A stretch of 64,000 nucleotides of DNA from assembly GCF_024223415.1 (NCBI RefSeq), contig NZ_CP100500.1. One strand, 5' to 3'. Both the position numbers and the translations under genes were made by a program. Shown piece by piece: positions 1,888 to 53,659 of the stretch. Numbering within the stretch: position 1 is the stretch's first letter; each line of letters begins with the position of its first letter. The notes under the pieces are model-generated. The model made no database searches and was not told the DNA's origin. It saw only the letters and a program-made list of their open reading frames with translations. Origin of the DNA: Escherichia coli. Its GTDB lineage: Bacteria > Pseudomonadota > Gammaproteobacteria > Enterobacterales > Enterobacteriaceae.

Positions 1888-3243
1888 TTACAGGATGCGG
1901 CTAATTAATCGGTCGATGCGGATACGGCGCAAACGGCGGATGAGTTTACGAACCTTCACCGGATAATCGGCAATACTTTGCAGATCGCGATAGTGCTTAA
2001 CGATGGTGGTATGCTCGCGGATCAGCTCCAGTTCTTTCTCTCGCTGTGGCGCAAGCTCCAGTTGCGGATCGTGGATCAAAATGGCGTTTTCCAGATCCAG
2101 ACGCCAGGCGCGCGGGTTCAGGTTATTACCGGTGATCAACATCCACTTATCATCAACCCACATCCCTTTCAGGTGATAGGTGTTGTCGTCATCTTTCCAT
2201 AACCGAACCACTAACTGGTCAGTATTGACGTAATACTGCAAACGGCTCAGGAAACGACGCAGATTGATCTCATAGAGATAAGGCAATGCGCCAATTATCT
2301 TGAAAGGTTCATCTTCCGGAATGTAGAAGTCGTTCGCGGTTTTATCACCAACAATAATTTCGACCTTTTTCCCTTCGCGCAGCAACTGGATAATATTGCG
2401 CACAAGGATTGCTGGCAGGTTGAAGTATGGCGTACAGATGGTTAGTTTCTGCTCGGCACAAGGCATAAGATGGAAAATGGTCTTGTTCAACAGACTCGAT
2501 TTCCCCAGCCCCACTAGCGGCGTTACGGAAAGCTGATCGTTGTCGGCATCGCCCTGGAAATGATAAGCGGCATCACGCAGCTCCTGGCGGAACAGACGAA
2601 TATCATTCTTGATTTCCGGGCTTTTTGGCCGATTAACATCATCCAGACGATTAACGCCGCGGCCATTCATAATATTCTGTGTAACCCATTCAAACATAAT
2701 GTCTGACATCTTACGGTTACGGATAAGATGATAACGGTCGTAGCGATATTTATCGTGCTGATGCAGGTAAACATCGTTCAGGCTGGCACCGCTATAAAGT
2801 ACGCTATCGTCGATGATAAAGCCTTTAAAGTGCAGAACGCCAAGGGCTTCACGGGTATTGATTGGAACGCCATAAACCGGAACATCTACGCCCGGATTTT
2901 CCTGCGCCATGCGGCAGTACCAGTCAGCGTTAGTGTTAGATGCCGCAGCGCCAATGCGTCCACGTTGTGCACGATGCCAGTCGACCAGCACCCGCACATC
3001 CAGTTCCGGACGCTGCCTTTTAGCTTCATACAACGCGTTCAGAATGCCTTTGCCACCGTCATCCTGTTCGAGATACAGGGCGACAATGCAAATGCGCTGC
3101 TTCGCGCTGGCTATTTTTTCCAGCAGCGTCTCCCGGAAGTCGGCGGGAGCGTAAAAGAAATCGACATCATCAACTGATTGAGAAATCTTGGGTAGTTGGG
3201 CAAGGTGTTGTTGATGTTTATTACGCTTAAATTTTGACAACAT
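1888..3243 (-). CDS. pssA: phosphatidylserine synthase (PLD superfamily, two HKD motifs)
   Basis: ORF 1888..3246. The sequence MLSKFKRNKHQQHLAQLPK... is recognised as PssA. HFKG and HLKG HKD-type motifs are present. Confidence 0.95.
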   Translation of the reverse strand: MLSKFKRNKHQQHLAQLPKISQSVDDVDFFYAPADFRETLLEKIASAKQRICIVALYLEQDDGGKGILNALYEAKRQRPELDVRVLVDWHRAQRGRIGAAASNTNADWYCRMAQENPGVDVPVYGVPINTREALGVLHFKGFIIDDSVLYSGASLNDVYLHQHDKYRYDRYHLIRNRKMSDIMFEWVTQNIMNGRGVNRLDDVNRPKSPEIKNDIRLFRQELRDAAYHFQGDADNDQLSVTPLVGLGKSSLLNKTIFHLMPCAEQKLTICTPYFNLPAILVRNIIQLLREGKKVEIIVGDKTANDFYIPEDEPFKIIGALPYLYEINLRRFLSRLQYYVNTDQLVVRLWKDDDNTYHLKGMWVDDKWMLITGNNLNPRAWRLDLENAILIHDPQLELAPQREKELELIREHTTIVKHYRDLQSIADYPVKVRKLIRRLRRIRIDRLISRIL

Positions 3244-3356
3244 CACAGTGCATTTCTTCTCTGTTCATTGAAGGGTCCTCTGTGCAATGCAGACGACATA
3301 AGCGGGCAATAATAACACCAGTCCCGATTAAGTGGTCAACATTTCCAGTACCTTAC

Positions 3357-6017
3357 TCATGATTCCTCGCGTTGGGCAAGATTTAGCGTAAGCCCAACGA
3401 TCCCCTCTTCGAGCTGGATATCAACGTTAAACCCGAGCTTGCGGGCCAGCGCCACCATGCCACGATTATTTGGCATCGTAATACCATTCAGACGTTGTAG
3501 TCCGTGATCTCGCGTATAGGTAATCAACTTTTCCATTAAGCGTCGACCTAAGCCTAACCCTTTGAGATCCGAGCGAACCAGCACGGCAAATTCGGCATCG
3601 ATGTTATCAGGGTCGGAGATCGCACGCGTGACGCCGAGGATCTCTTCCGTTTGATCAATACGTCGTACCGCTACAAACGCCATTTCCCGATCGTAGTCGA
3701 TCTGCGTCATGTTGGCTAAATCTTCATGGGTAAATTCGTTGATCTCGCTAAAGTAGCGGTAATAAAGATCTTCTTTGGTGACTCGCGAAATGAATTGCTG
3801 AAGTTGTGGCTCATCTTCTGGCAAAATCGGGCGGAACAAGCAGCGTTCACCGTTTTTCAATTCTACCCATTCTTCCAGCTGATGCGGATAAGGGCGCACT
3901 GCCAGCCGACTCTCGTTATCGCCTTCAAACGGCGCGATATCCAGCGTGACATCCAGCGCGTTAAATTCACTGCCAGAAGCCAGCAAAGGATGAATATCCA
4001 GACGCTGAATTTCCGGGCAATCGACAATCAAGTTGGAAACCTGCACCAGAAGCTGGCTCAAGCCTGCAACATCCAATGGGCGTAGCGCACTGCGCGCACG
4101 AATCTTTTTACTTTTGATCCCCTGAATAACCAGATAGCGGGCCAGGTTCATATTCAGCGGCGGCAGTGCGACGACGGCTTGATCTTCAGGACGCCACTCC
4201 ACACCGCCTTCACCCAGCATGATCAACGGCCCAAAAACCGGATCGTGCTCAACCACAACCCGCAACTCCTGAGCGCCAGCACGGTTAGCCATACTTTGCA
4301 CCAACAGGCCGTGGACCCGCGCCTGCGGCCAGGTCATTTTTACGCGATCGAAAATAGCGTTTGCCGCTTGCTGGACTTCATTGGCTGTACGCAGGTACAG
4401 CATGACGCCCTGAACTTCCGATTTATGTGGAATATCCGGCGAACGCAATTTCAGCGCCACCGGATAACCAATCTGTTCGGCAATATGCACCGCTTCGGTG
4501 CTATCACTGGCAATCCAGGTAGGGAGCGTGTTCATGCCATACGCTTGCAGGATGGGCTGAACTTCATGGGTATCGAGCGACGTAGCCCCTTCGGCAATCG
4601 CCTGTTGCAACAGAAGATGCGCTTTTGCGGTATTGGAAGTCAGATTGCTGGGCAACGCCGGCGTTTCGCGTAGTTGCTTCTGATTACGCCGGTACTCCAC
4701 CATATGCATAAAAGCAGTGATGGTTCCTTCCGGGGTACGGTAGGTCGGCAGCCCGGCTTCGCTGAATAAACGTCGTGCCTCTTGCGAGGAGTGCTCGCCG
4801 CACCAGTTCGTCAGCAGAGAAACATACTTGCTGCGGGGATGATGCTTTACCGCTTCAATTAATGCTTGCGCACTTTCTGTTGCGGGAGCAGCGGCGCTGG
4901 GCGAATGAATAACCATCAGCGCATCAAAATCCTGGCTATGGAGCAGAATGTCCAGCGTTTTGACATAATGCTCGCTGCTGGCGTCATCGCGCAGATCGAG
5001 CGGGTTAGAGATTGCCACATGTCCTGGCAGTGCATCGCGCAGTTTCTGGCAGGTTTCTTCGCTTAGTGTTGCCAGCTTGCCATTGCGTGACCATAAGGCA
5101 TCCAGCGCCAGCGCGGCAGGCGCAGCACCGTTGCTGATAATCATCAACCGGTCGCCACGCAGCGGGCGCATATGGCTAAGGGTTTCTACCGCCGAAAACA
5201 GTTCGTGGGTGTCCTGTACCCGCAACAAACCGGCACGCTGAATAGCCGCATCCCATGCCGGGTCCATTCCTGCCGTCGTGTTGAGCAGTCGCTGTGCCGC
5301 CGGGCTACGTCCGCTTTTAATCACCAGAATCGGTTTATTACGCGAGGCACTACGGGCCGCCGAAACAAAGCGTCGCGCGTCGCTTAACTGTTCGAGATAG
5401 AGCAGGATGGCGCTGGTTTTACTGTCGCGTGCCAGATAGTCAAGCAATTCATCAACGTCGATATCCAGGCTGTCGCCGAGCGCAATAAAGTAGGAAAAGC
5501 CCATCTCACGTTGTTGCGCCCAGTCGAGGATGGTGTTGGAGACGGCAGCCGATTGTGAAATAAACGCCAGCTTGCCGCGTTTAATAGGTACCGGCGAAAA
5601 GCTGGCATTCAGACCTTGCCAGGGAGCCAGTAAACCCAGACTGTTTGGTCCAAGCAGGCGCATGTTATGGCGCAGGGCGCAGGCGCGGAGATCTTCGTGT
5701 TGCGATGCCGGGGCGGAAAGAATAATGCAGGTTTTACAGCCTTTCTCGCCGAGCTCTTCCAGAAGAGCAAGATTACGGCTGGCATTGGTACATAAAACCG
5801 CAAGGTCGGGTGTAAAGGGCAAGCTGGCAATATCCGGCCAGGCCAACACACCCAACACCGCTTTCCAGGCTGGCGTCACCGGGAGTACCGGTCCGTTAAA
5901 GCCTCCCGCCAGCAGGTTACGCATCATCAGGTAACCTGCGCGATTGGGTTTCATCGACGCGCCAATTACCGCTATCGATTTTGGTCGCAGTAGTGCTTCC
6001 AGTCCTCGCTGACTCAT
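3357..6017 (-). CDS. patZ: protein lysine acetyltransferase (CoA-ligase-like domains plus C-terminal GNAT)
   Basis: 886-aa ORF recognised as YfiQ/Pka/PatZ. N-terminal CoA-binding and ATP-grasp-like regions and a C-terminal GNAT motif (RSDLKGLGLGRRLMEKL). Confidence 0.95.
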   Translation of the reverse strand: MSQRGLEALLRPKSIAVIGASMKPNRAGYLMMRNLLAGGFNGPVLPVTPAWKAVLGVLAWPDIASLPFTPDLAVLCTNASRNLALLEELGEKGCKTCIILSAPASQHEDLRACALRHNMRLLGPNSLGLLAPWQGLNASFSPVPIKRGKLAFISQSAAVSNTILDWAQQREMGFSYFIALGDSLDIDVDELLDYLARDSKTSAILLYLEQLSDARRFVSAARSASRNKPILVIKSGRSPAAQRLLNTTAGMDPAWDAAIQRAGLLRVQDTHELFSAVETLSHMRPLRGDRLMIISNGAAPAALALDALWSRNGKLATLSEETCQKLRDALPGHVAISNPLDLRDDASSEHYVKTLDILLHSQDFDALMVIHSPSAAAPATESAQALIEAVKHHPRSKYVSLLTNWCGEHSSQEARRLFSEAGLPTYRTPEGTITAFMHMVEYRRNQKQLRETPALPSNLTSNTAKAHLLLQQAIAEGATSLDTHEVQPILQAYGMNTLPTWIASDSTEAVHIAEQIGYPVALKLRSPDIPHKSEVQGVMLYLRTANEVQQAANAIFDRVKMTWPQARVHGLLVQSMANRAGAQELRVVVEHDPVFGPLIMLGEGGVEWRPEDQAVVALPPLNMNLARYLVIQGIKSKKIRARSALRPLDVAGLSQLLVQVSNLIVDCPEIQRLDIHPLLASGSEFNALDVTLDIAPFEGDNESRLAVRPYPHQLEEWVELKNGERCLFRPILPEDEPQLQQFISRVTKEDLYYRYFSEINEFTHEDLANMTQIDYDREMAFVAVRRIDQTEEILGVTRAISDPDNIDAEFAVLVRSDLKGLGLGRRLMEKLITYTRDHGLQRLNGITMPNNRGMVALARKLGFNVDIQLEEGIVGLTLNLAQREES

Positions 6018-40266: not shown

Positions 40267-40890
40267 TTATCTTTTGCGGCGGTAAATACGATGTTCAATC
40301 ATGACCCCTACGATCTGTAAGGGGACATCTGCACTTCGTAGCACGGGATAGTCGGGATTCAGGGGGACCAGTTCAAAATCATCAACGCCGATACCCAACG
40401 GGCGGTATTTTTTGAAAGTGGCCTCATACCCGTTGTTCTTTGCAACGACGAATTCGCCAGGCATGGGGCATAAATCCGGGTCAATTATTACAATATCGCC
40501 TTCCTTAAACTCCGGTTGCATACTGTCACCATCTATCCGCAGGGCGAAGCAGGACTCAGGTACGTCGGAATCCGCGAGAACGTATTCCATATTTCCATCC
40601 ATGTCCGTAGCGTCTTTTGCTTCCGTTAGCGCACCGGCCTGTACGTAACTGAGGATCGGGATGCGGCGGGTACTTATTTCCGCCAGGGGCATTATATTCC
40701 TGCCATTTAAAAGCCAGTCGGGACTGCATTTCAGTGCCTTTGAAAGCTCTATGATGTTGCGGGGCTTCCGGGTCTTTCCGCTTTCAATAGTCTCAATGGA
40801 TTGCTGGCTGACCCCCGCGATTGCTGCAACTTCTGTTTGTGTCATCCCGAGTTCTGTACGGCGTGCTTTAAAGCGTTCTGCAAGTGACAT
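40267..40890 (-). CDS. cI: CI-like repressor (HTH_XRE plus S24 LexA-like peptidase)
   Basis: ATG at 40890 after GGGGG. N-terminal HTH (LGMTQTEVAAIAGVSQQSIETIESG). C-terminal GDSM serine and FKK lysine. Confidence 0.9.
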   Translation of the reverse strand: MSLAERFKARRTELGMTQTEVAAIAGVSQQSIETIESGKTRKPRNIIELSKALKCSPDWLLNGRNIMPLAEISTRRIPILSYVQAGALTEAKDATDMDGNMEYVLADSDVPESCFALRIDGDSMQPEFKEGDIVIIDPDLCPMPGEFVVAKNNGYEATFKKYRPLGIGVDDFELVPLNPDYPVLRSADVPLQIVGVMIEHRIYRRKR

Positions 40891-40928
40891 GGTGTACCCC
40901 CTGATTCCTGATTTTTTGCTCTCCCTTA

Positions 40929-40990
40929 TTAATACAATTTTTGTTGTAGTTGACAAACATCATTTATTGTCGCTAAATACCACATAAATT
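40929..40990. promoter_or_regulatory. divergent cI/cro promoter-operator region
   Basis: Plus strand: TTGACA (40950-40955), 18 nt, TAAATA (40974-40979). Minus strand: TTGTCA, 16 nt, TATTAA. Palindromes TACAAnnnnnnTTGTA and GACAA..TTGTC, plus an AAATACCACATA site. Confidence 0.55.
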
Positions 40991-43620: not shown

Positions 43621-43687
43621 CCGAGCCGTTGCGGTTTTTATTCATTTAAATGCATATGCAATGCTGGTGAATGATAAGGGGGTGCAG

Positions 43688-44386
43688 ATGCTGACAGCAA
43701 TCAACAACGAAAAAATTGTCATCGCAAGGGACGCGCAGAAACCGGGAATTTTCGCCTGCCCGGAATGTGGTGAAGTTGTCACCCTGCGGAAAGGTTCGGT
43801 GAAAGTTCACCATTTCGCCCATCGCAGCACCACATCCTGCGGTTACGGGAAAGGCGAATCTGAGTTGCACATGGATTTGAAAATGCAGGTCTATGACGCG
43901 TTGAACGCGCATCGTGAGGTGGAATATGTTGCGATGGAGGTCGCAGTCGGTGATGTTCGTCCCGATGTGCTGGCGATTATTCGGGGTCAGAAGGTTGCTT
44001 TTGAGATTCAGGTTAGTTCGCTGAGTATTGAAGACCTCTATCGCCGCACGGTTGCGTACGCAGCTCAGGACATTGCGATGATCTGGATCCTGCACTGGCC
44101 TGAAGGTACTGCACTGGACCGGCTTTATCACCCTGCATCATGGGAGCGATGGTTACATACTTGCGGAATGGCAACTCTGTACTTCTGGGCGGGCGATGGC
44201 TGGGTCAGGCCAGTGCGTCTGGGAAACCGACAACATGGATTACAAAGAGCACCTCGTGCCCATCTGGTTGATGATTTCGAACCAAAGCGAACAGGCGGGT
44301 GGATTAAAGGTGATTTTCTGATACCTGCTCGCTTTATCTGGAATCGTGTGCGACGGCAAAAACGTAGAGGTCAGAGCTATGCGTAA
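43688..44386 (+). CDS. CoiA-like PD-(D/E)XK nuclease family protein
   Basis: ATG at 43688 after AGGGGG. CPECG...HFAH...C, then GESELH...E...RPDV...FEIQVS...W pattern as in the competence protein CoiA family. Confidence 0.6.
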   Translation: MLTAINNEKIVIARDAQKPGIFACPECGEVVTLRKGSVKVHHFAHRSTTSCGYGKGESELHMDLKMQVYDALNAHREVEYVAMEVAVGDVRPDVLAIIRGQKVAFEIQVSSLSIEDLYRRTVAYAAQDIAMIWILHWPEGTALDRLYHPASWERWLHTCGMATLYFWAGDGWVRPVRLGNRQHGLQRAPRAHLVDDFEPKRTGGWIKGDFLIPARFIWNRVRRQKRRGQSYA

Positions 44387-44813
44387 TATTCAACAGGTTT
44401 TAGAGCGCTGGGGTGGCTGGGCTGCCAATAGCAACACCACAGTGAGCTGGGCTCCAATAGCGGCGGGATTTAAAGGGCTGGTAGTCAGCAGCCTGCCTGG
44501 CAGGCTGAGTTGCTGCGACGACGATGGCCTGATTATCGATGCTTGCGTCTGTCGGCTGCAGCAGGTCCGTAAGCCTGAGGAACTGGACGTCATTATGCTG
44601 TACTACGTCTACGGGTTAAGCAAACGTGAGATAGGACGGCGGCGTCGATGTTCTGAAGGATTTATCCGCCAGCAGTTGCAGGTAGCTGAGGGATTCATTG
44701 AGGGGTGTCTCTGCATGCTGGGTGTGAGCCTTCAGATGGATCCTGAGGTCGAAATTCAAAGGGATGAAAAAAGTATTAGTGCGCTACGCAAAAACTGCGC
44801 TACGCTGGTATGA
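44379..44813 (+). CDS. Q: late-gene antiterminator Q
   Basis: MRNIQQVLERWGGWAANS...AAGFKGL...CCDDDGLIID matches the recalled Q family of 21/933W-type lambdoid phages. Confidence 0.85.
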   Translation: MRNIQQVLERWGGWAANSNTTVSWAPIAAGFKGLVVSSLPGRLSCCDDDGLIIDACVCRLQQVRKPEELDVIMLYYVYGLSKREIGRRRRCSEGFIRQQLQVAEGFIEGCLCMLGVSLQMDPEVEIQRDEKSISALRKNCATLV

Positions 44814-45187: not shown

Positions 45188-45403
45188 ATGAAATCAATGG
45201 ACAAAATCTCAACTGGCATTGCCTACGGAACATCCGCTGGTAGTGCGGGATACTGGTTTTTACAGTGGTTGGATCAGGTCAGTCCGTCACAGTGGGCTGC
45301 TATTGGTGTGCTGGGGAGTCTGGCACTGGGCTTTCTGACTTATCTGACGAATCTGTACTTCAAGATAAAAGAGGACCGTCGCAAGGCGGCGCGGGGAGAG
45401 TAA
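45188..45403 (+). CDS. S: class II pinholin (phage 21 S-type), dual-start motif
   Basis: [45 protein letters not shown]... matches recalled S21 (Met1/Met4 starts, two TM segments). Confidence 0.9.
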
Positions 45404-46352: not shown

Positions 46353-46667
46353 TTATCTGTTGCTGGATAATCGACTGAAGATGCGTTCTTTTTGTGTTTT
46401 TGCGTAATGATTGTCCCACTCACAATCAAGGTAGCTTAATTCTTCATTCAACCAGTTATTTATATTGGTCTTAATACGCATAAGCATGGGCTGTGTTAAT
46501 GCTCTGGCGATAATGCCGAGAGTCACAGGTGTGAGATGTCCATACGGCTCAGCCTGAATGGATTTTACTGCATCGTGTTCTTGTGGGAGGAGTAAGAGGC
46601 ACTCTGATTTTACCCGCTCATTTATGGCTTGCAGGCATAAATCATAATTATGTTGATCGTTATGCAT
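46353..46667 (-). CDS. hypothetical 104-aa protein (possibly YdfR/DUF826-like)
   Basis: Convergent with the preceding gene and antisense to late transcription. Its position between holin and lysozyme recalls ydfR in the Qin prophage. Weak recall only. Confidence 0.5.
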   Translation of the reverse strand: MHNDQHNYDLCLQAINERVKSECLLLLPQEHDAVKSIQAEPYGHLTPVTLGIIARALTQPMLMRIKTNINNWLNEELSYLDCEWDNHYAKTQKERIFSRLSSNR

Positions 46668-46795: not shown

Positions 46796-47329
46796 ATGAA
46801 CACCAAAATCAAATATGGCCTGTCGGCTGCCGTTCTGGCACTGATTGCCGTCGGTGCGCCTGCGCCTGATATTCTCGACCAGTTTCTGGATGAAAAAGAA
46901 GGTAACCACACAACGGCATACCGCGATGGTTCCGGTATATGGACCATCTGTCGTGGTGCCACAATGGTGGATGGTAAGCCCGTCATACCGGGAATGAAGC
47001 TGTCGAAGGAAAAATGCGTTCAGGTTAATGCCATTGAGCGTGATAGGGCGCTGGCATGGGTGGAGCGCAATATTAAAGTACCTCTGACCGAAGCACAGAA
47101 AGCGGGTATTGCGTCATTCTGTCCCTATAACATTGGCCCCGGTAAGTGTTTCCCGTCGACGTTTTATAAGCGGCTTAATGCCGGTGATCGTAAAGGTGCC
47201 TGTGAGTCGATTCGCTGGTGGATTAAGGACGGTGGGCGTGATTGCCGCACACGTTCAAATAACTGCTACGGACAGGTTATTCGTCGTGACCAGGAAGCAG
47301 CACTTGTGTGCTGGGATATCGACAGATGA
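46796..47329 (+). CDS. R: SAR endolysin (T4-lysozyme-type, phage 21 R-like)
   Basis: N-terminal signal-anchor-release segment GLSAAVLALIAVGA followed by the E-x8-D-x5-T catalytic triad (EGNHTTAYRDGSGIWT). Confidence 0.9.
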   Translation: MNTKIKYGLSAAVLALIAVGAPAPDILDQFLDEKEGNHTTAYRDGSGIWTICRGATMVDGKPVIPGMKLSKEKCVQVNAIERDRALAWVERNIKVPLTEAQKAGIASFCPYNIGPGKCFPSTFYKRLNAGDRKGACESIRWWIKDGGRDCRTRSNNCYGQVIRRDQEAALVCWDIDR

Positions 47330-47334
47330 GCAGA
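47262..47334. repeat. R 3' end / Rz start segment, copy 1
   Basis: About 70 bp that recur, diverged, at 47819-47889. Confidence 0.8.
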
Positions 47335-47421
47335 ATATTTTGCTGAAAAATGACGTTGGCCAACGCGGACGGATAACACGATATTCGACATAAATGAATT
47401 TAAATAGTGAATAAAAGCAGA

Positions 47422-47456
47422 AACCCCGATTGTTGGTCGCAATCGGGGTTTTGTGT
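47422..47456. terminator. strong hairpin terminator inside the R-Rz insertion
   Basis: aaccccgattg/caatcggggtt stem followed by a T-rich tail. Confidence 0.65.
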
Positions 47457-47514
47457 TTCTGGCAGTAAGTTATGGGAGGCTGCCTTGATTAATTTTAGCG
47501 GAGGAGACTGGATT

Positions 47515-47652
47515 GTGGAAGCTCTGAAATTGCTCGAAAGAAGTCCGGTTCTGAGAAGAATGTTTTATATAGCTCTTATAGTTATCGGAGCATTCGCCGT
47601 TGCGAAATCACTTCCGGGAATAGCTGAAATCATAAAGGCGCTGAATGCATAA
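47515..47652 (+). CDS. 45-aa single-TM protein
   Basis: GTG after GGAGGAG. VEALKLLERSPVLRRMFYIALIVIGAFAVAKSLPGIAEIIKALNA. Part of track ORF 47407..47652. Confidence 0.45.
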   Translation: MEALKLLERSPVLRRMFYIALIVIGAFAVAKSLPGIAEIIKALNA

Positions 47653-47818
47653 AGAATACCTGGCTGAGGCTGACAAACAGGTCTCTGAATTGAAAGCTCC
47701 GGTAACCGATGACATCAGCGGAGCGGTGGCTTTTGCCATTAAGTGGGTGGCAGTCGGCGTTGCTATATCACCGGTACTGTATGGGCTGGCAAAGCTGGTT
47801 ATTGCGTTGAAATCATAA
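47645..47818 (+). CDS. 57-aa single-TM protein
   Basis: Not in the ORF track. Its ATG overlaps the upstream stop (ATGCATAA). MHKEYLAEADKQVSELKAPVTDDISGAVAFAIKWVAVGVAISPVLYGLAKLVIALKS. Confidence 0.45.
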   Translation: MHKEYLAEADKQVSELKAPVTDDISGAVAFAIKWVAVGVAISPVLYGLAKLVIALKS

Positions 47819-47889
47819 CTGTTACGGCCAGGTTATTCGTCGTGACCAGGAAAGTGCATTAGCCTGTTGGGGGATAGATCAGTGAGCAG
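47819..47889. repeat. relic R 3' end fused to the intact Rz start, copy 2
   Basis: ctgttacggccaggttattcgtcgtgaccaggaa... parallels 47262-47334. Confidence 0.8.
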
Positions 47890-48349
47890 AGTCGCCGCGA
47901 TTATTTATGCTCTGGTTATCTGCATCATCGTCTGCCTGTCGTGGGCGGTCAATCATTACCGTGATAACGCCATCGCCTACAAAGAACAGCGTGATAAAAA
48001 AGTCAGTGAGCTGAAGCAGGCGACCGCCACCATTACTGACATGCAGCAACGCCAGCGTGCTGCTGATGTACTCGATGCTAAATACACGAAGGAGTTGGCT
48101 GATGCGAAAGCTGAAAATGATGCTCTTCGGCGCAAGCTTGATAATGGTGGTCGGGTGCTCGTCAAAGGAAAATGCTCTGTGCCATCCTCAGCCGAAACCT
48201 CCAGCGCCTCCGGCATGGGCAATGATGCCACCGTCGAACTCTCTCCAGTTGCTGGACGAAACGTTCTCGGTATCCGGGACGGAATCATCAGAGACCAGAC
48301 AGCACTGAGAACGCTTCAGGAATATATCAGGACGCAATGCCTTCGATGA
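47882..48349 (+). CDS. Rz: i-spanin Rz
   Basis: GTG at 47882. [39 protein letters not shown]... closely matches recalled lambda Rz. Confidence 0.9.
48102..48308 (+). CDS. Rz1: o-spanin Rz1 (embedded, +1 frame)
   Basis: [19 protein letters not shown] lipobox followed by a proline-rich region, nested in Rz. Confidence 0.85.
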
Positions 48350-48523
48350 TAGCGATAATTTTACTGATCATCCTTCACATCTGGCTCTGTAGACAGGGTG
48401 GTGATCACTTCTGGAGTGAATCCAGATTAAACATCTCATTGCTGATGCTTGAAGTTGAGCATCTGGCGCGCGGTAAGGGGCTGCGTTGAAATAAGAGCCA
48501 GTCATTAAAAATACCTGGATTTA

Positions 48524-48546
48524 GCCTCGCATTCGCGGGGCTTTTT
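48524..48546 (+). terminator. terminator downstream of Rz
   Basis: gcctcgc/gcggggc stem followed by ttttt. Confidence 0.55.
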
Positions 48547-48550
48547 ATTG

Positions 48551-48852
48551 CCATTACAAAAGCCACTCCCTACAGAGTGGCTTTGATAATGGCTTATACC
48601 CTACACGGGATAACTTAACTGATATCCCTTTTAACGGATAAAGGTATTCAAGCCTGACACATCATGCGCTGTATCGTCGCCGTATTCCCGTATTAACAGA
48701 GACCGTAGCCCGACGGGGAACTCCTTCTGCGAGAGTGTGCGGGAATAATCAAAAACGATGCACACCGGGTTTTTACCGCGCTAATGATTCGCGGGTTTGT
48801 CCCTCATGCTCGCCAGTCCTGTGCGAGGGTGGAAGAAACAGGGCATGTATTC
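48551..48852. repeat. ~300-bp direct repeat, copy 1
   Basis: 48551-48775 matches 50338-50561 with about six mismatches by eye. Weaker similarity continues to 48852 / 50638. The repeat begins with the hairpin agccactc/gagtggct. Confidence 0.95.
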
Positions 48853-48899
48853 AGGAGCGTGCGACCGTGGTCGCACGGTATCTTTGTCAGGAGGTTTTG

Positions 48900-49760
48900 A
48901 TGAAAGAGTTGCAAAAAATTAATTCAATAATGGAAAGGTTAAGTGCTCTTGAGCGTAAGCTGGACGATTGTGGAAAGCTGTGTGTTGAAAAGCAAAATGA
49001 GCTTTACCGGGAATTTTTTACAATCGTAAGTGAGCTGATGCCAATTGTTAATAACTGCCTGATGACATCCAGATTTTTTAATGTCGATGCTACTACATCC
49101 AGAAAATTTTCTGTGAAAATTCAAGAAAGAGTTTCTGGTAGTGTGACAAGAGAGATGGCTGAACAGTTGGTGGCAATGAGCAATAAAACAAAAAGAAAAA
49201 AGGCATTGCTTGTAACAGCAAATCAGCTTTCAGGGCGCGTTGACTTTCAGGTCAGACAGGGTGGGCGTGTACTGGTAAATGATGCGTTCGTTGGACGTAG
49301 CTTTAGTCCTTACTCGATAAAATATGATGTTGATGCAGATGATCAGGATATCAGCATTTCCTGGAAATCTGAGACAGCAGGGATTGTATTAACAGCAGAG
49401 TTGTTGAGTGATGATAAAAATGATGTCCAGCATCATTTGGACGAAAAGAATCATATTTCTGAAATTTGTATGAAGCCACGCAGCGGAATGACTTTATTGT
49501 CACGCACTCTTGCTGCTGGCTTTTCTGCACCGGAAAAACGTGTGCTTCTGGTAGTGCCTGAAGATGCAGATATTCGACCACTGAATGGCTGTGATGTTAT
49601 TAGTGCAAAAACATTGCATACCCGCGTCATTCCTGTACCGGATGTGGTCATTATTGATGATGTTGAGAAATGCAAGTCTGTTTCCTCAACTGCCACAATC
49701 AAGCGAATTTTACGTTGTAGCACGTCGGCTGTTGTATTCCGGAAGCAGTTACATAACTAA
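48900..49760 (+). CDS. hypothetical 286-aa protein (N-terminal coiled coil; C-terminal degenerate P-loop-like region)
   Basis: ATG at 48900 after AGGAGG. AT-rich. PRSGMTLLSRTLA...RVLLVVPEDAD...DVVIIDDVEK resembles Walker A (Lys replaced by Met) and Walker B spacing. Inference only. Confidence 0.6.
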   Translation: MKELQKINSIMERLSALERKLDDCGKLCVEKQNELYREFFTIVSELMPIVNNCLMTSRFFNVDATTSRKFSVKIQERVSGSVTREMAEQLVAMSNKTKRKKALLVTANQLSGRVDFQVRQGGRVLVNDAFVGRSFSPYSIKYDVDADDQDISISWKSETAGIVLTAELLSDDKNDVQHHLDEKNHISEICMKPRSGMTLLSRTLAAGFSAPEKRVLLVVPEDADIRPLNGCDVISAKTLHTRVIPVPDVVIIDDVEKCKSVSSTATIKRILRCSTSAVVFRKQLHN

Positions 49761-49886
49761 CCAGTTTTGTTTTGCAGAACATCCTCAACTAAAAGCTTAT
49801 AGAAAGAGAGCCTGAGATATTTTTTCTGTCTCTCGTAGTTGTTTGTTTTTTTTTTCGAACAGGCTTACAACTTACAGGATATAAAC

Positions 49887-50336
49887 ATGCAAGAAGAAGC
49901 AAATAAAATTCTTGTTGATTTATTGAAGAAGGCCAGCGATGGAATTGATTCCGCCATTGCATTCAGTCAGGCTCAGATTCCGGATGTTGTTCATCAGTTG
50001 CTGGTATGGAATATGGTTGATAGCCTGATTAAAACATTAATAGCCATTTCAACAATCCCTCTGGTTTTCTGGTTTATGAAGAAGCAGTGCCAAAGAGTTG
50101 AGACAGGTAAAATCGGTGATGAAGGATATTCATGGGAGAAGGGAAATCCCAAATACAGGCCGACAATGGTTTGGGATAGCAAAGGTGATATTAATCTTCT
50201 TATCGTGCCATTGGTTGGAGTTTTGACTATGTGGGGGATTTTTATTATTTGTGCAGTAACCAATATGACATGGTTAAAAATCTGGCTGGCACCTAAGTTA
50301 TATCTAATCGAATACGCAGCATCACTAATTAAATAG
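49887..50336 (+). CDS. hypothetical 149-aa membrane protein (two predicted TM segments)
   Basis: ATG at 49887. TM segments LIKTLIAISTIPLVFWFM and LLIVPLVGVLTMWGIFIICAV. Confidence 0.55.
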   Translation: MQEEANKILVDLLKKASDGIDSAIAFSQAQIPDVVHQLLVWNMVDSLIKTLIAISTIPLVFWFMKKQCQRVETGKIGDEGYSWEKGNPKYRPTMVWDSKGDINLLIVPLVGVLTMWGIFIICAVTNMTWLKIWLAPKLYLIEYAASLIK

Positions 50337-50337
50337 T

Positions 50338-50638
50338 CCATTACAAAAGCCATTCGCTACAGAGTGGCTTTGATAATGGTTTATACCCTGTACGGGATAA
50401 CTTAACTGATATCCCTTTTAACGGATAAAGGTATTCAAGCCTGACACATCATGCGCTGTATCGTCGCCGTATTCCCGTATTAACAGAGACCGTAGCCCGA
50501 CGGGGAACTCCTTCTGCGCGAGTGTGCGGGAATAATCAAAAACGATGCACACCGGGTTTTACTGTGCTGACAGACGCAGGGTTACTCTCATAGTCGCTTT
50601 TCCGGTGCGATGGTGGAAGAAACCGGGATGTTTATTCA
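50338..50638. repeat. ~300-bp direct repeat, copy 2
   Basis: See copy 1. This copy ends at the stop codon of the ylcI-like gene. Confidence 0.95.
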
Positions 50639-50826
50639 TCATCTATTTGGATTGATGTATATGCTCTCTTTTCTGACGTTAGTCTCCGACGGCAGGCTTC
50701 AATGACCCAGGCTGAGAAATTCCCGGACCCTTTTTGCTCAAGAGCGATGTTAATTTGTTCAATCATTTGGTTAGGAAAGCGGATGTTGCGGGTTGTTGTT
50801 CTGCGGGTTTTGTTCTTCGTTGACAT
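50632..50826 (-). CDS. YlcI/YnfO-family (DUF3950) small RHH-like protein
   Basis: MSTKNKTRRTTTRNIRFPNQMIEQINIALEQKGSGNFSAWVIEACRRRL matches recalled DLP12 YlcI, which also sits just upstream of a Nu1 homolog. Confidence 0.7.
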   Translation of the reverse strand: MSTKNKTRRTTTRNIRFPNQMIEQINIALEQKGSGNFSAWVIEACRRRLTSEKRAYTSIQIDDE

Positions 50827-51024
50827 GAGGTTGCCCCGTATTCAGTGTCGCTGATTTGTATTGTCTGAAGTTGTTTTTACGTTAAGTTGATGCAGATCAA
50901 TTAATACGATACCTGCGTCATAATTTATTATTTGACGTGGTTTGATGGCGTAGATGCACGTTGTGACATGTAGATGATAATTATTATCATTTTGCGGGTC
51001 CTTTCCGGCATGTGGACCGTTACG

Positions 51025-51036
51025 GGGCGTCGACCT
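51025..51036. other. cos: cosN cohesive-end sequence GGGCGTCGACCT
   Basis: The flanks (cgttaagttgatgcagatcaattaatacgatacctgcgtcataat...gggtcctttccgg...ttacg | ...cgcggtttttcgctatttatga) match the recalled lambda right and left ends. One G-to-T change relative to lambda GGGCGGCGACCT. Confidence 0.85.
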
Positions 51037-51074
51037 CGCGGTTTTTCGCTATTTATGAGATTTTTTGAGGGGGT

Positions 51075-51220
51075 GGTTGTTGTTTAATTGTTTGGTATAT
51101 CTAATTGATAAGTAAGGTGAAAATAAAATAAATACAACAACCTTACGATGTGCTTTGATGTCATTAATGTGAAAAAATTAAATGATATCAAATGGTTTTG
51201 TAAAAACACATGGTTGTTGT
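51075..51220. promoter_or_regulatory. candidate cosB: three GGTTGTTGT sites
   Basis: GGTTGTTGT at 51075-51083 and 51212-51220. Inverted ACAACAACC at 51134-51142. AT-rich between them. Confidence 0.5.
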
Positions 51221-51252
51221 ATCGCTTTTTATCGATGACTTATGGAGAGGAG

Positions 51253-51759
51253 ATGGCCTTTTTATTGAATAAAAGTGATATGGCCTCCTCCATCGGTATC
51301 TCTGTTCAGGCATTTGATAAATGGGGTGTTCCTCCTGTCGAGCGTCGGGGGAGGGAAGTTTTTTATGACGTTAAAACTGTACTGGAGATAGATCGCGAGC
51401 GGCGACAACACAATCATAGAACACCTGATGACGGGGGCGATCTGGAGGAAAGGCTGCTTCGGGCCAGAGCTGAACTGACAGAAGAACAGGCCGTAGCTCA
51501 AAAACTTAAAAATCAGGTAACCGAAGGTAAGCTCATCGATTCAGACTTCTGCGTTTTCGCCCTCAGCAAGCTGGCGATGGCATTGTCCAGTACGCTTGAT
51601 TCTATTCCGTTATCCATGCAGCGACAGTTCCCGGATTTAACGCCACGTCATCTTGACCATCTGAAAACCCTTATTGCGAAGGGCGCAAATCAGTGTGCGC
51701 GGGCAGGGGATAAATTACCGGATTTGCTGGATGAATATATCAGAGCAACAACTGAATAA
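51253..51759 (+). CDS. nu1: terminase small subunit (Nu1-like, non-lambda specificity)
   Basis: ATG at 51253 after GGAGAGGAG. LNKSDMASSIGISVQAFDKWGVPP...VFYDVKTVLE parallels the Nu1 winged-HTH region. Overlaps the start of gene A as in lambda. Confidence 0.8.
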   Translation: MAFLLNKSDMASSIGISVQAFDKWGVPPVERRGREVFYDVKTVLEIDRERRQHNHRTPDDGGDLEERLLRARAELTEEQAVAQKLKNQVTEGKLIDSDFCVFALSKLAMALSSTLDSIPLSMQRQFPDLTPRHLDHLKTLIAKGANQCARAGDKLPDLLDEYIRATTE

Positions 51760-53659
51760 TCTGATGGCTGCCGTTTCGGTTGCGCTGCAGCCTCTGGTCA
51801 GGGTTGTACCGATGACGGCAGTTGAATGGGCTGATCAAAATTATTATCTGCCGAAAGAATCCTCATACGGTGACGGCGAATGGAAAACGCTGCCGTTCCA
51901 GATCGCCATCATGAACAGTATGGGGAATGATCAGGTCCGCACTGTTAATCTGATTAAATCTGCCCGTATTGGTTATACAAAGATGTTGCTGGGGGTGGTC
52001 GGGTATTTTATTGAGCATAAATCCCGAAACAGTCTGCTTTTTCAGCCCACGGATTCTGCCGCTGAAGATTTTATGAAGTCTCACGTGGAGACGACGATTA
52101 GGGACGTGCCATGCCTGAAAGACCTTTCCCCATGGCTGGGTCGTAAACATCGTGATAATACCCTCACGCTGAAACGCTTTTCATCGGGCGTCGGTTTCTG
52201 GTGCCTGGGCGGCGCTGCCGCCAAAAACTACCGTGAAAAATCCGTGGACGTGGTCTGCTATGACGAACTCTCATCGTTTGAACCTGATGTTGAAAAAGAG
52301 GGCTCGCCAACCCTGCTGGGGGATAAGCGTATTGAGGGCTCTGTATGGCCAAAATCCATTCGCGGCTCGACGCCTAAAATCAAAGGCTCCTGCCAGATCG
52401 AAAAAGCCGCTAACGAGTCGGCACATTTCATGCGTTTTTATGTGCCCTGTCCGCACTGTGGGGAGGAGCAGTATCTGAAATTTGGTGATGATGCCTCGGC
52501 TTTCGGTCTTAAGTGGGAGAAGAATAAGCCAGAAAGTGTTTTCTACCTTTGTGAGCATCATGGCTGTGTGATCCATCAGTCTGAGCTTGACCAGAGTAAC
52601 GGGCGGTGGATCTGTGAAAACACGGGGATGTGGACCCGTGACGGTCTGACGTTTTTCAGCGCCCGGGGTGATGAAATTCCGCCGCCGCGCTCCATCACTT
52701 TCCATATCTGGACGGCGTACAGTCCGTTCACCACCTGGGTACAGATAGTCTATGACTGGCTGGATGCACTGAAAGATCCCAACGGCCTGAAAACCTTTGT
52801 GAACACCACGCTGGGCGAGACCTGGGAAGAGGCCGTGGGCGAAAAACTCGATCACCAGGTACTGATGGATAAGGTTGTGCGTTACACGGCGGCGGTGCCT
52901 GCCCGGGTGGTTTATCTGACGGCGGGCATTGACTCGCAGCGAAACCGTTTTGAGATGTATGTCTGGGGATGGGCTCCGGGAGAGGAAGCCTTTCTGGTGG
53001 ATAAAATCATCATTATGGGACGTCCCGATGAGGAAGAGACGCTGTTACGTGTGGATGCGGCGATCAACAAAAAATACTGCCATGCAGACGGAACCGAAAT
53101 GACCATTTCCCGTGTCTGCTGGGACATCGGGGGGATCGATGGCGAAATCGTTTATCAGAGGTCAAAAAAACACGGTGTTTTCCGGGTGCTGCCGGTAAAA
53201 GGCGCATCTGTCTATGGCAAGCCGGTGATCACCATGCCAAAAACCCGCAATCAGCGGGGCGTGTATCTGTGTGAAGTGGGGACGGACACCGCAAAAGAAA
53301 TTCTCTATGCCCGTATGAAAGCCGCTCCCACGCCTGCGGATGAATCCACGTCGTATGCCATCCGTTTTCCTGATGATCCGGAGATTTTTTCGCAGACAGA
53401 GGCGCAGCAACTGGTCGCGGAAGAGCTTGTGGAGAAGTGGGAAAAAGGAAAGATGCGTCTGCTGTGGGATAACAAAAAGCGGCGTAACGAAGCGCTGGAC
53501 TGCCTGGTGTATGCCTACGCGGCATTACGTGTGTCCGTGCAACGCTGGCAGCTTGATCTGGCTGTACTGGCAAAATCCCGGGAAGAAGAGACGACCCGGC
53601 CAACCCTTAAAGAACTGGCAGCGAAGCTGTCCGGAGGAGTGAATGGTTACAGTCGCTGA
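51731..53659 (+). CDS. A: terminase large subunit gpA
   Basis: MNISEQQLNNL... The sequence is colinear with recalled lambda gpA (KSARIGYTKMLLG, YDELSSF, CPHCGEEQYLKFGD). Confidence 0.95.
   Translation: MNISEQQLNNLMAAVSVALQPLVRVVPMTAVEWADQNYYLPKESSYGDGEWKTLPFQIAIMNSMGNDQVRTVNLIKSARIGYTKMLLGVVGYFIEHKSRNSLLFQPTDSAAEDFMKSHVETTIRDVPCLKDLSPWLGRKHRDNTLTLKRFSSGVGFWCLGGAAAKNYREKSVDVVCYDELSSFEPDVEKEGSPTLLGDKRIEGSVWPKSIRGSTPKIKGSCQIEKAANESAHFMRFYVPCPHCGEEQYLKFGDDASAFGLKWEKNKPESVFYLCEHHGCVIHQSELDQSNGRWICENTGMWTRDGLTFFSARGDEIPPPRSITFHIWTAYSPFTTWVQIVYDWLDALKDPNGLKTFVNTTLGETWEEAVGEKLDHQVLMDKVVRYTAAVPARVVYLTAGIDSQRNRFEMYVWGWAPGEEAFLVDKIIIMGRPDEEETLLRVDAAINKKYCHADGTEMTISRVCWDIGGIDGEIVYQRSKKHGVFRVLPVKGASVYGKPVITMPKTRNQRGVYLCEVGTDTAKEILYARMKAAPTPADESTSYAIRFPDDPEIFSQTEAQQLVAEELVEKWEKGKMRLLWDNKKRRNEALDCLVYAYAALRVSVQRWQLDLAVLAKSREEETTRPTLKELAAKLSGGVNGYSR

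What the first reader, a model, noticed from the sequence alone, without database searches (positions are those of the whole stretch)
48551..50638. AT-rich two-gene cassette (degenerate P-loop-like protein plus membrane protein) bracketed by ~300-bp direct repeats between Rz/Rz1 and cos
The intergenic element that normally separates Rz from the ylcI-like gene is present twice. 48551-48775 and 50338-50561 differ at only about six positions by eye, and weaker similarity continues to 48852 and 50638. Between the copies sit two co-oriented genes that are visibly more AT-rich than their surroundings. The first is 48900..49760 (286 aa). It has an N-terminal coiled coil, a beta-rich middle, and a C-terminus with Walker-A-like PRSGMTLLS (Lys replaced by Met) and Walker-B-like VVIIDDVE. 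The second is 49887..50336 (149 aa, two TM segments). Neither matches a family I recognise. The first gene has a strong AGGAGG RBS and an 8-bp hairpin (cgtgcgac/gtcgcacg, 48857-48876) just upstream. A soluble sensor-like protein paired with a small membrane protein, sitting in a moron hotspot next to the lysis genes and flanked by recombination-competent repeats, is typical of phage-encoded defence or exclusion modules.
Basis: partly seen in the sequence, partly recalled or inferred. Interest (0 to 1): 0.8.

Follow-up and report, generated by a model that had tools for sequence, protein, structure and literature searches.

The report
Repeat-flanked phage accessory gene pair
Two uncharacterised phage genes, one for a rare soluble protein and one for a widespread small membrane protein, sit between two copies of a conserved spacer in the known variable region between the lysis genes and the DNA-packaging site of a lambda-like prophage; they are real and move independently, and nothing found here shows they form a defence system.

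Summary
The repeats 48551-48773 and 50338-50560 differ at 6 of 223 bases, and about 70% similarity continues for roughly 80-100 bases more. Between them lie two co-oriented, AT-rich genes (39-41% GC against about 49% in the flanks).

The repeat is a conserved non-coding block that is single-copy between Rz and the terminase genes in lambdoid phages. Variable cargo sits on either side of it (bor, a 74-aa protein, TonB_C, ylcI, p78/p79, HNH). A site with the same flanks, one repeat copy and no cassette exists in other E. coli.

The two genes are separable. Gene 2 (phrog_3054, two transmembrane segments) occurs alone in many phages, some of them virulent, and often in early operons. An identical allele sits at this same site without gene 1. 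Gene 1 (phrog_2571) was found only in Escherichia and Shigella, mostly on N15-like phage-plasmids. It is composite: its middle domain matches a 74-aa family found just after Rz, and its C-terminal domain has Walker-like motifs with Met in place of the catalytic Lys.

There were no hits to defence models or RexAB, and no promoter was found. The genes point the same way as the late operon, downstream of a terminator. The defence-pair reading is not supported, though membrane-level exclusion by gene 2 remains possible. Function is unknown and interest is modest.

The parts
47867..48349 (+). Rz spanin gene, last recognised lysis gene (Rz1 is embedded in it)
   Evidence: Pfam Phage_lysis, E=9e-29
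48337..48489 (+). orf50, a conserved 50-aa hydrophobic ORF that overlaps the Rz stop codon
   Evidence: phrog_11822, E=8.6e-38. Annotated in the same position in L007, L008 and L144.
48523..48550 (+). Intrinsic terminator-like hairpin with a T-run, immediately before the left repeat
   Evidence: 8-bp stem with 6 GC pairs, followed by TTTTTATT
48551..48852 (.). Left copy of the conserved Rz-to-terminase spacer element. Its most conserved core is about 48665-48775.
   Evidence: 97% identical to the right copy over 223 nt. From 48701 onward it is 97-100% identical to the left copy in N15-like elements.
48858..48877 (+). 8-bp-stem hairpin. It is a remnant of the 5' end of an HNH endonuclease ORF and a recurrent mosaic junction.
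   Evidence: In L001 and L010 the same sequence lies inside an annotated partial HNH endonuclease gene. In PhiR46_1 it occurs on both sides of the partial left element.
48889..48894 (+). AGGAGG ribosome-binding site of gene 1
   Evidence: Read directly from the sequence
48900..49760 (+). Gene 1, 286 aa, phrog_2571. It has an N-terminal helical hairpin, a central beta domain (about residues 100-172) homologous to a 74-aa family found after Rz, and a C-terminal alpha/beta domain of about 100 aa carrying KPRSGMT and DVVIIDD motifs.
   Evidence: dN/dS is 0.32 against the CUVM3 allele.
49761..49886 (+). AT-rich spacer (34% GC) between the two genes. The right-hand boundary of the gene 1 module falls within it, at about 49831.
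49887..50336 (+). Gene 2, 149 aa, phrog_3054. A small membrane protein with two predicted transmembrane segments and conserved N- and C-terminal helices. It is a self-contained module.
   Evidence: dN/dS is 0.11-0.17 against copies in pL operons.
50338..50640 (.). Right copy of the spacer element. It starts one base after the gene 2 stop codon and overlaps the 3' end of ylcI. Its core is about 50452-50562.
50632..50826 (-). ylcI/ynfO-like gene (DUF3950)
   Evidence: Pfam DUF3950, E=1.7e-20
51025..51041 (+). cosN-like site, GGGCGTCGACCTCGCGG
   Evidence: Unique match in the window. The resemblance to lambda cosN (GGGCGGCGACCT) rests on my own knowledge.
51148..51759 (+). Nu1-type small terminase gene, where the packaging and head genes begin
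   Evidence: Pfam Phage_Nu1, E=2e-20

Best explanation
This is ordinary mosaic cargo in the hypervariable interval between Rz and cos in the late operon of a lambdoid prophage. It is not a dedicated two-component system.

The bracketing repeats are two copies of a conserved non-coding block that lambdoid phages normally carry once between the lysis and terminase genes. The duplication is what unequal homologous exchange would produce between a phage carrying only Rz-orf50-block-ylcI and a donor of the N15-like phage-plasmid or TUM1886 type, in which the cargo sits between two block copies or to the left of a single one. The same repeats allow the cassette to be lost or passed on by homologous recombination (inferred).

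The cargo is two independently mobile single-gene modules.
- Gene 2 is a self-sufficient small inner-membrane protein of a family spread across temperate and virulent phages of Proteobacteria.
- Gene 1 is a young composite protein found only in Escherichia and Shigella. It combines a helical hairpin, a beta domain related to the 74-aa proteins that occupy the slot just after Rz, and a P-loop-like domain that lacks the catalytic lysine and so is probably non-catalytic.

Both genes point the same way as the late operon, follow a terminator and have no recognisable promoter. I infer that they are transcribed by Q-antiterminated read-through during lytic growth (about 0.6).

My best guess at function concerns gene 2 acting alone at the cell envelope during the lytic cycle. 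Most plausibly it blocks superinfection or DNA entry in the manner of T4 Imm or Sp (about 0.3-0.35). Modulating lysis timing is less likely (about 0.15). Gene 1 would be a cytoplasmic accessory of unknown role that does not need gene 2.
For: Repeat and element:
- The repeat is confirmed.
- The block is present in 3559 of 5426 complete E. coli genomes and in 499 phage records, including lambda.
- In 120 IMG/VR loci the core motif occurs once per locus. To its left lies nothing, orf50, bor, the 74-aa gene, or, in one locus, DUF4406-gene1-gene2. To its right lie combinations of ylcI, p78, p79, TonB_C and HNH, or nothing.
- A site with the same flanks, one block copy and no cassette is contiguous in E. 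coli XB2 (98.0% identity) and ZH142 (97.3%).
- Mosaic ancestry: 48701 to about 50050 is 95-100% identical to N15-like elements, and 48901-50900 is 98-100% identical to TUM1886.

Separability of the genes:
- Homology of gene 2 to phages Oslo and Stx2_EH2086 is confined to the ORF.
- Gene 2 lies in the pL operon between N and cIII in Oslo, Sf6 and strain EJN001, and in virulent phi92, N4-like and Pseudomonas phages.
- An identical gene 2 sits at the same site in strain 135 without gene 1. The junctions on both sides fall at TGTC|TCTC.
- Gene 1 is in 34 of 5426 genomes and gene 2 in 135.

Gene 1:
- A search of 1.84 billion representatives found only its own cluster at full length, plus fragments and weak partial hits.
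- The beta domain matches the 74-aa family at E down to 1e-31. That family sits immediately after Rz.
- Walker-like motifs align with cystovirus P4 NTPase and with Wzc at E about 0.1.

Both genes are under purifying selection. No promoter was found, and a terminator lies upstream. There are no defence, Pfam or NCBIfam hits.
Against: - No function was demonstrated for either protein.
- The structure models are poor (mean pLDDT 48 and 65), and the fold searches were uninformative.
- The promoter scan tests only a sigma-70 consensus and cannot exclude weak or atypical promoters in the AT-rich DNA. Expression in lysogens is therefore not excluded.
- Gene 1 stays next to gene 2 across two gene 2 alleles that differ by 10-13%. 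This could reflect selection for the pairing.
- In Vibrio phage K366 the gene 2 homologue lies on the opposite strand inside a tail gene cluster, like a moron expressed in lysogens.
- The superinfection-exclusion role is an analogy based on size, membrane location and genomic context. It is not a result.
Confidence: 0.6

Rival explanations
1. One reading: a two-component exclusion or abortive-infection system that works like lambda RexAB. The soluble 286-aa protein senses an infecting phage, and the 149-aa membrane protein kills or depolarises the cell, or blocks entry.
For: - The sizes and order mirror RexA (279 aa) and RexB (144 aa).
- The cassette is AT-rich cargo in a hotspot where the lysogen-expressed genes bor and iss also sit.
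- Every intact gene 1 copy seen is followed by gene 2, across two different gene 2 alleles.
- A catalytically dead P-loop-like domain could act as a sensor or switch.
Against: - Gene 2 is found alone in most phages that carry it, including virulent ones and pL early operons. An identical allele sits at the same site without gene 1.
- All gene 1 copies are one recent lineage, so co-occurrence with gene 2 is not independent evidence.
- There are no PADLOC hits.
- hhalign probability is 2.3% against RexA and 0.1% against RexB. A short match to RexA (pairwise E=0.005) disappears when the family profile is used.
- No promoter was found, and the genes point the same way as the late operon behind a terminator.
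- Gene 1 is truncated in 7 of the 34 genomes that carry it.
Confidence: 0.12
2. A lysis accessory. Gene 2 is a holin-, antiholin- or spanin-associated membrane protein that adjusts lysis timing, and it is expressed with the neighbouring lysis genes.
For: - It is a small protein with two transmembrane segments, which is the general shape of a class II holin.
- It lies just downstream of holin, endolysin and Rz, in the same orientation, on the late transcript.
Against: - It matches no holin, antiholin or spanin family in Pfam or PHROGs.
- In other phages it lies far from the lysis genes, in early operons.
- The prophage already has a class II holin at 45188-45403.
Confidence: 0.1
3. Functionless hitch-hiking DNA. 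The cassette is a neutral by-product of recombination between lambdoid phages and N15-like phage-plasmids, and gene 1 in particular is a decaying chimera.
For: - Gene 1 has a very narrow distribution and a composite make-up.
- Truncated or deleted versions occur in 7 of 34 genomes and in phage YDC107_1.
- Sites with the same flanks and no cassette are common.
Against: - The ORFs are intact, and dN/dS is 0.32 for gene 1 and 0.11-0.17 for gene 2.
- Gene 1 has a strong ribosome-binding site.
- Gene 2 is conserved from Escherichia to Vibrio, Pseudomonas and Ralstonia phages.
Confidence: 0.1

Closest known systems
The cargo (moron) hotspot between Rz and cos in lambdoid phages, for example bor in lambda and iss/bor in DLP12-like prophages
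   Same: The cassette lies in the same interval, next to the same conserved non-coding block. Its base composition is foreign, and it is present or absent among otherwise similar phages.
   Different: bor and iss are transcribed leftwards, and the HK630 record annotates a leftward promoter just upstream of bor. That bor is expressed in lysogens rests on my own knowledge. Genes 1 and 2 point the same way as the late operon and have no detectable promoter. The cassette is also bracketed by a duplication of the block, which was not seen in any of the 120 surveyed loci.
Lambda RexA/RexB exclusion system
   Same: A soluble protein of about 280 aa is followed by a membrane protein of about 145 aa, both encoded by a lambdoid phage.
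   Different: There is no detectable homology. RexB is described as a four-transmembrane protein (my own knowledge), whereas gene 2 has two predicted segments. rexAB lies next to cI and is expressed in lysogens (my own knowledge), whereas this pair lies in the late operon. Gene 2 usually occurs without gene 1.
Small inner-membrane superinfection-exclusion proteins made during lytic growth (T4 Imm and Sp; P22 SieA)
   Same: Gene 2 is a small phage-encoded membrane protein. It is found in early regions of virulent phages and beside sieB and ral in pL operons.
   Different: There is no sequence relationship to any PHROG annotated for superinfection exclusion. The comparison is an analogy and has not been tested.
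P-loop NTPases with a deviant Walker A of the MinD/ParA/BY-kinase type (KGGxGK[ST]), and the cystovirus P4 packaging NTPase
   Same: KPRSGMT has the spacing K-x3-G-x-T of the deviant Walker A. The following helix and the strand KRVLLVV align with Wzc. SGMT and DVVIIDD align with the Walker A and Walker B of P4.
   Different: The E-values are only 0.1-0.8. The catalytic Lys is Met in every family member. The best Wzc match is to the engineered K540M dead mutant; that identification rests on my own knowledge of entry 3LA6. The domain is only about 100 aa, far shorter than real family members.
The 74-aa family found just after Rz, which is the short form of phrog_2571 (for example P0183 in E. coli O55:H7 CB9615)
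   Same: It is homologous to residues 100-172 of gene 1. It occupies the same late-operon slot, directly after Rz and to the left of the conserved block.
   Different: It is a stand-alone beta domain, without the helical N-terminus or the P-loop-like C-terminus. Its function is also unknown.

Membership tests
phrog_2571 (function unknown) | Full-length match to the family profile | tested here: met
   Gene 1 scores E=6.7e-164 over profile positions 1-291 of 291. The 74-aa proteins match profile positions 100-172.
phrog_3054 (function unknown) | Full-length match to the family profile | tested here: met
   Gene 2 scores E=6.2e-61 over profile positions 1-137 of 137.
Known anti-phage defence systems (PADLOC-DB v2.0.0) | Either protein matches any model of a defence-system component | tested here: not met
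   No families matched either protein at E up to 1.
Lambda RexAB | Homology of the soluble protein to RexA | tested here: not met
   hhalign probability is 2.3% with the gene 1 family and 0.3% with the beta-domain family. A 38-residue BLASTP match (E=0.005 for the single pair) is not kept by the profile.
Lambda RexAB | Homology of the membrane protein to RexB, described as having four transmembrane segments | tested here: not met
   hhalign probability is 0.1%. Gene 2 has two hydrophobic segments. The four-segment description of RexB rests on my own knowledge.
Lambda RexAB | Located in the immunity region and transcribed with the repressor in lysogens | tested here: not met
   The cassette lies 8 kb downstream of the cI-like gene (40267-40956), inside the late operon between Rz and cos.
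P-loop NTPase | Walker A motif GxxxxGK[ST] with the catalytic lysine | tested here: not met
   The sequence is KPRSGMT. Met197 is invariant among the family members aligned.
P-loop NTPase | Walker B motif: a hydrophobic strand ending in D[DE] | tested here: met
   DVVIIDD (residues 248-254). D248, V249, V250, I251, D253 and D254 are invariant. The motif aligns with the Walker B region of P4. This holds at motif level only.
P-loop NTPase | Alpha/beta P-loop fold, or significant sequence similarity to family members | tested here: inconclusive
   AF2 predicts a beta-alpha-beta pattern for residues 199-284 at pLDDT about 52-76. The best PDB profile hits have E=0.096-0.8. Fold searches gave nothing usable.
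Moron in the sense of Juhala et al. 2000 (definition from my own knowledge) | Base composition differs from the surrounding phage genes | tested here: met
   The genes are 38.7-40.7% GC against about 49% in the flanks.
Moron in the sense of Juhala et al. 2000 | Its own promoter upstream and its own terminator downstream, allowing expression from the prophage | tested here: inconclusive
   No sigma-70-like site lies upstream of either gene. The only strong terminator lies upstream of the cassette. The scan tests a consensus only.
Holins, antiholins and spanins | Match to a holin, antiholin or spanin family | tested here: not met
   Gene 2 has no such Pfam or PHROG match. The prophage already has a class II holin at 45188-45403.
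Annotated superinfection-exclusion families (PHROGs) | Sequence match to a family annotated as superinfection exclusion | tested here: not met
   Only phrog_3054 (function unknown) matches significantly. Whether gene 2 works like such proteins cannot be tested with these tools.
Transposon or insertion-sequence type mobile element | A transposase or recombinase gene, terminal inverted repeats and a short target-site duplication | tested here: not met
   The cassette holds only the two ORFs. The flanking direct repeats are about 300 bp of pre-existing phage sequence, not a short duplication.

The most novel reading that the evidence does not exclude
The gene 2 family (phrog_3054) could be a widespread, uncharacterised phage inner-membrane exclusion or effector protein, used alone by virulent and temperate phages. 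In the Escherichia N15-like and lambdoid lineage it may have been coupled to a newly assembled pseudo-NTPase partner (gene 1). Together they would form a young two-component exclusion system that works like RexAB but is unrelated to it.
Probability: 0.12. Interest if true: 0.6.

Novelty: new member of a known kind. Interest (0 to 1): 0.3.

Why it matters
As it stands, this is a clean example of how lambdoid phages and N15-like phage-plasmids exchange single-gene cargo around a conserved non-coding anchor next to cos. It also shows one way a new multi-domain protein can be assembled from locally available parts.

It would matter more if gene 2 proved to have a defined activity. Its family occurs in many phages of Escherichia, Salmonella, Vibrio, Pseudomonas and Ralstonia and has no assigned function. 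Any membrane-level role found for it, such as exclusion, lysis control or host takeover, would annotate a large family at once. Gene 1 alone is too narrowly distributed to be of wide interest unless it turns out to be a specific partner of gene 2.

Tried and rejected
- Gene 2 structure. The AF2 model (pLDDT 65) searched against BFVD found only its own family.
- Resemblance of gene 1's KPRSGMT and DVVIIDD to the Walker motifs of the prophage's own lambda-A-type terminase. BLASTP did not support it.
- Resemblance of the gene 1 N-terminus to the C-terminal helices of P0145, or to the neighbouring DUF1327 protein. Not supported.
- A short match to RexA (E=0.005 for the pair) disappeared when the broader beta-domain profile was used.
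- The repeat element as a small RNA or as a promoter unit like lambda P_bor. Rfam found nothing in 47000-52000 apart from one weak, unrelated hit elsewhere. The -35 and -10 hexamers annotated in HK630 are not conserved in the window copies. RNAalifold found no consensus structure on either strand across 76 variants. There is no codon periodicity, and the 44-58-aa minus-strand ORF is frameshifted in HK630.
- Literature. Searches by accession number, PHROG id and phage name found nothing about either protein.
Full report
**Observation**

The window carries a lambdoid prophage. Its recognisable genes, in order, are:
- a cI-like repressor (40267-40956, minus strand);
- a replication gene with an AAA_25 domain;
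- the Q antiterminator (44346-44813);
- a class II holin (45188-45403);
- a DUF1327-family gene;
- the lysozyme gene (46796-47329);
- Rz (47867-48349);
- after the region in question, a Nu1-type small terminase gene (51148-51759) and the large terminase gene.

A cosN-like site, GGGCGTCGACCTCGCGG, lies at 51025-51041.

48551-48773 and 50338-50560 differ at 6 of 223 positions, with a longest perfect run of 127 nt. Similarity of about 70-80% continues for roughly another 80-100 nt. Between the copies lie 48900-49760 (286 aa, AGGAGG 5 nt upstream of the start) and 49887-50336 (149 aa). These are 40.7% and 38.7% GC, and the spacer between them is 34%. The neighbouring late genes and the left repeat are about 49% GC. 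The same element-cassette-element layout recurs in independent assemblies of N15-like linear phage-plasmids and in phage PhiR46_1, so it is not an assembly artefact.

**What the repeat is**

The element is widespread. It occurs in 3559 of 5426 complete E. coli genomes, with up to 8 copies per genome, and in 499 phage records. Lambda itself carries it at about 46867-46973, and the homologous stretch of HK630 holds an annotated leftward promoter just upstream of bor.

I surveyed 120 IMG/VR loci fetched with the core motif GTATTCCCGNATTAAC. The motif occurs once in every locus, between Rz and the terminase genes, and the cargo on each side varies:
- To the left: nothing, orf50, bor (minus strand), a 74-aa gene, or, in one locus of 120, DUF4406-gene1-gene2.
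- To the right: nothing, ylcI, p78, p79, TonB_C or HNH, in various combinations.
- Beyond that: one of three types of small terminase gene.

An artificial joint of the left flank, one repeat copy and the right flank is found as one contiguous piece in E. coli XB2 (98.0% identity) and ZH142 (97.3%). The site therefore exists in nature with the same flanks, one repeat copy and no cassette.

I found no sign that the block codes for a protein or a structured RNA:
- Rfam gave nothing relevant.
- RNAalifold found no consensus structure on either strand across 76 variants.
- There is no codon periodicity.
- The short minus-strand ORF is frameshifted in HK630.
- The promoter hexamers annotated in HK630 are not conserved in the window copies.

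Its role is unknown. Its effect in practice is to act as a recombination anchor.

**Mosaic ancestry**

- From 48701 to about 50050 the window is 95-100% identical to the N15-like elements.
- From 48901 to at least 50900 it is 98-100% identical to the chromosomal prophage of strain TUM1886. That prophage has only the right-hand block and carries a partial HNH endonuclease gene upstream of gene 1.
- The hairpin at 48858-48877 is the tail of that HNH remnant. In PhiR46_1 it recurs on both sides of the truncated left block, so it is a repeated junction.
- Left of 48666 the window instead resembles prophages with Rz-orf50-terminator-block.

This pattern is what unequal homologous exchange between block copies of different phages would produce. 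That step is inferred.

**The two genes are separable**

Gene 2 (phrog_3054, E=6.2e-61) has 490 relatives in the 5.8-billion-protein search and matches in 178 phage records. Several observations show that it stands alone:
- Its homology to Salmonella phage Oslo and to an Stx2a phage starts at the ATG and ends at the stop codon. The flanks are unrelated.
- In Oslo, Sf6 and E. coli strain EJN001 it lies in the pL early operon between N and cIII, next to sieB or ral.
- In phi92, an N4-like Salmonella phage and Pseudomonas phage Bjorn it lies among early genes. In Vibrio phage K366 it lies on the opposite strand inside a tail gene cluster.
- No neighbouring gene is conserved across these contexts.
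- E. coli strain 135 carries a 100% identical gene 2 at this same site without gene 1. Its junction reads GGTATCTTTGTC|TCTC, whereas the window reads ...TTTGTC|AGGAGG-gene1-...TCTGTC|TCTC.

Gene 1 occurs in 34 of 5426 complete genomes, 14 of them on plasmids. It is truncated in 7 of the 34. Gene 2 occurs in 135 genomes. Gene 1 is also found in 24 PLSDB plasmids, all from Escherichia or Shigella. All gene 1 copies are at least 95.8% identical at the DNA level. They are one recent lineage, so their constant adjacency to gene 2 is weak evidence of a functional link. One observation points the other way: gene 1 sits next to two gene 2 alleles whose 3' halves are only 75-83% identical.

**Gene 1**

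Gene 1 belongs to phrog_2571 (E=6.7e-164). It has no Pfam, NCBIfam or PADLOC match. A phmmer scan of 1.84 billion representatives found only one full-length cluster.

A profile built from two weak partial hits led to a family of proteins of about 74 aa in E. coli and Salmonella. These align with residues 100-172 of gene 1 and with positions 100-172 of the PHROG profile. They sit immediately after Rz, overlapping its stop codon, and to the left of the conserved block. A 181-aa relative lies between Q and the holin gene in another prophage. The central domain of gene 1 therefore derives from a family native to late-operon slots.

AF2 predicts an N-terminal helical hairpin, six strands for the central domain and a beta-alpha-beta C-terminal domain. 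Confidence is low: mean pLDDT is 48 overall and 52-76 in the C-terminal domain.

A profile of the C-terminal domain finds cystovirus P4 packaging NTPase at E about 0.1. Its GGKT aligns with SGMT, and DVLYVD aligns with DVVIID. It also finds the Wzc kinase, where SPSIGMTFV...KRVLLID aligns with KPRSGMTLL...KRVLLVV. From my own knowledge, that Wzc entry is the engineered K540M dead mutant. These hits are not statistically significant, but both motifs line up with the corresponding Walker regions of those two proteins. Met197 is invariant in the family, so canonical hydrolysis is unlikely.

**Gene 2**

- It has two hydrophobic segments, about 43-65 and 102-127. The N-terminal (about 1-41) and C-terminal (about 127-149) helices are strongly conserved.
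- The density of Lys and Arg favours a cytoplasmic loop and periplasmic termini. This is an inference from the positive-inside rule.
- dN/dS is 0.11-0.17 against the copies in pL operons. Gene 1 gives 0.32. Both genes are under purifying selection.

**Expression**

A strong intrinsic terminator (48523-48550) precedes the left repeat. No sigma-70-like promoter was found upstream of either gene. Both genes point the same way as the late operon, which in lambda-type phages runs from pR' across cos into the head genes (plus my own knowledge of lambda late transcription). I therefore infer expression by Q-antiterminated read-through during lytic growth, with a probability of about 0.6. This fits the positions of gene 2 elsewhere, in early or delayed-early lytic operons. 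It does not fit a gene whose role is to protect the lysogen.

**Comparison with known systems**

- RexAB. The sizes and order of the pair recall lambda RexA (279 aa) and RexB (144 aa). Profile comparisons give probabilities of 2.3% and 0.1%. A short match to RexA (pairwise E=0.005) disappears with the broader family profile.
- Defence, holin and superinfection-exclusion families. None match.
- bor and iss. The closest known thing is the hotspot itself, where bor and iss reside. Those genes are transcribed leftwards. That bor is expressed in lysogens rests on my own knowledge.

**Verdict**

This is repeat-bracketed accessory cargo made of two independent modules of unknown function. The most likely active component is gene 2, acting alone at the membrane during lytic growth. 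Exclusion of superinfecting phage is the leading guess, at about 0.3-0.35. A two-component system that works like RexAB remains possible, at roughly 0.12. I rate the novelty as a new member of a known kind and the interest as modest.

Noticed in passing
window 48665-48775 and 50452-50562: A conserved non-coding block of about 110 nt, also present in lambda at about 46867-46973. It is the single-copy anchor between Rz and the terminase genes in lambdoid phages. I found no RNA consensus structure and no coding signal. The promoter hexamers annotated in HK630 are not conserved here. Its function is unknown.
   Followed up: yes
L016 5001-5225 (E. coli O55:H7 CB9615); also L017-L019: A family of 74-aa all-beta proteins is encoded directly after Rz, overlapping its stop codon, in prophages with an HNH endonuclease gene and a Terminase_2-type small terminase gene. 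It is homologous to residues 100-172 of gene 1. Its function is unknown.
   Followed up: partly
window 48337-48489 and 48523-48550: A conserved 50-aa hydrophobic ORF (phrog_11822) overlaps the end of Rz and is followed by a strong intrinsic terminator. The same arrangement is seen in other E. coli prophages.
   Followed up: partly
window 47407-47818: Two small ORFs (81 aa and 57 aa, the second matching phrog_1115) lie between the lysozyme gene and Rz, splitting the usual contiguous lysis cassette.
   Followed up: no
window 46353-46667 (minus strand): A 104-aa ORF (phrog_1853, function unknown) lies on the opposite strand between the DUF1327-family gene and the lysozyme gene. Its placement resembles that of a moron.
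   Followed up: no
window 48858-48877; L006 about 5750-5770 and 5960-5980: The hairpin upstream of gene 1 is the tail of a truncated HNH endonuclease ORF (MPSRIPRACRKRGCAG...KHRVRPW in L001 and L010). It recurs as a junction sequence on both sides of the partial left element in PhiR46_1.
   Followed up: partly
window 50050-50336: The 3' half of gene 2 is only 75-83% identical between the window/TUM1886 allele and the N15-like allele. Whole-gene dN/dS against the N15-like-type alleles is 0.33-0.72, compared with 0.11-0.17 against the pL-operon copies. This points to a recombination breakpoint inside the gene, and possibly to faster evolution of the loop and the second transmembrane segment.
   Followed up: partly
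L144 (E. coli AR_0089) 2438-3606: This locus has the same left flank as the window. Gene 1 is truncated to 104 aa, and gene 2 and ylcI are deleted. It is a decayed version of the cassette.
   Followed up: yes
window 49347-49460 (gene 1 residues 150-187): A short similarity to lambda RexA residues 215-240 (15 of 38 identical, pairwise E=0.005). It is not kept when the family profile is used, so I judge it to be chance.
   Followed up: yes
window 43661-44386: A CoiA-like nuclease gene (Pfam CoiA_N and CoiA_nuc) lies immediately upstream of the Q antiterminator gene and overlaps its predicted start.
   Followed up: no
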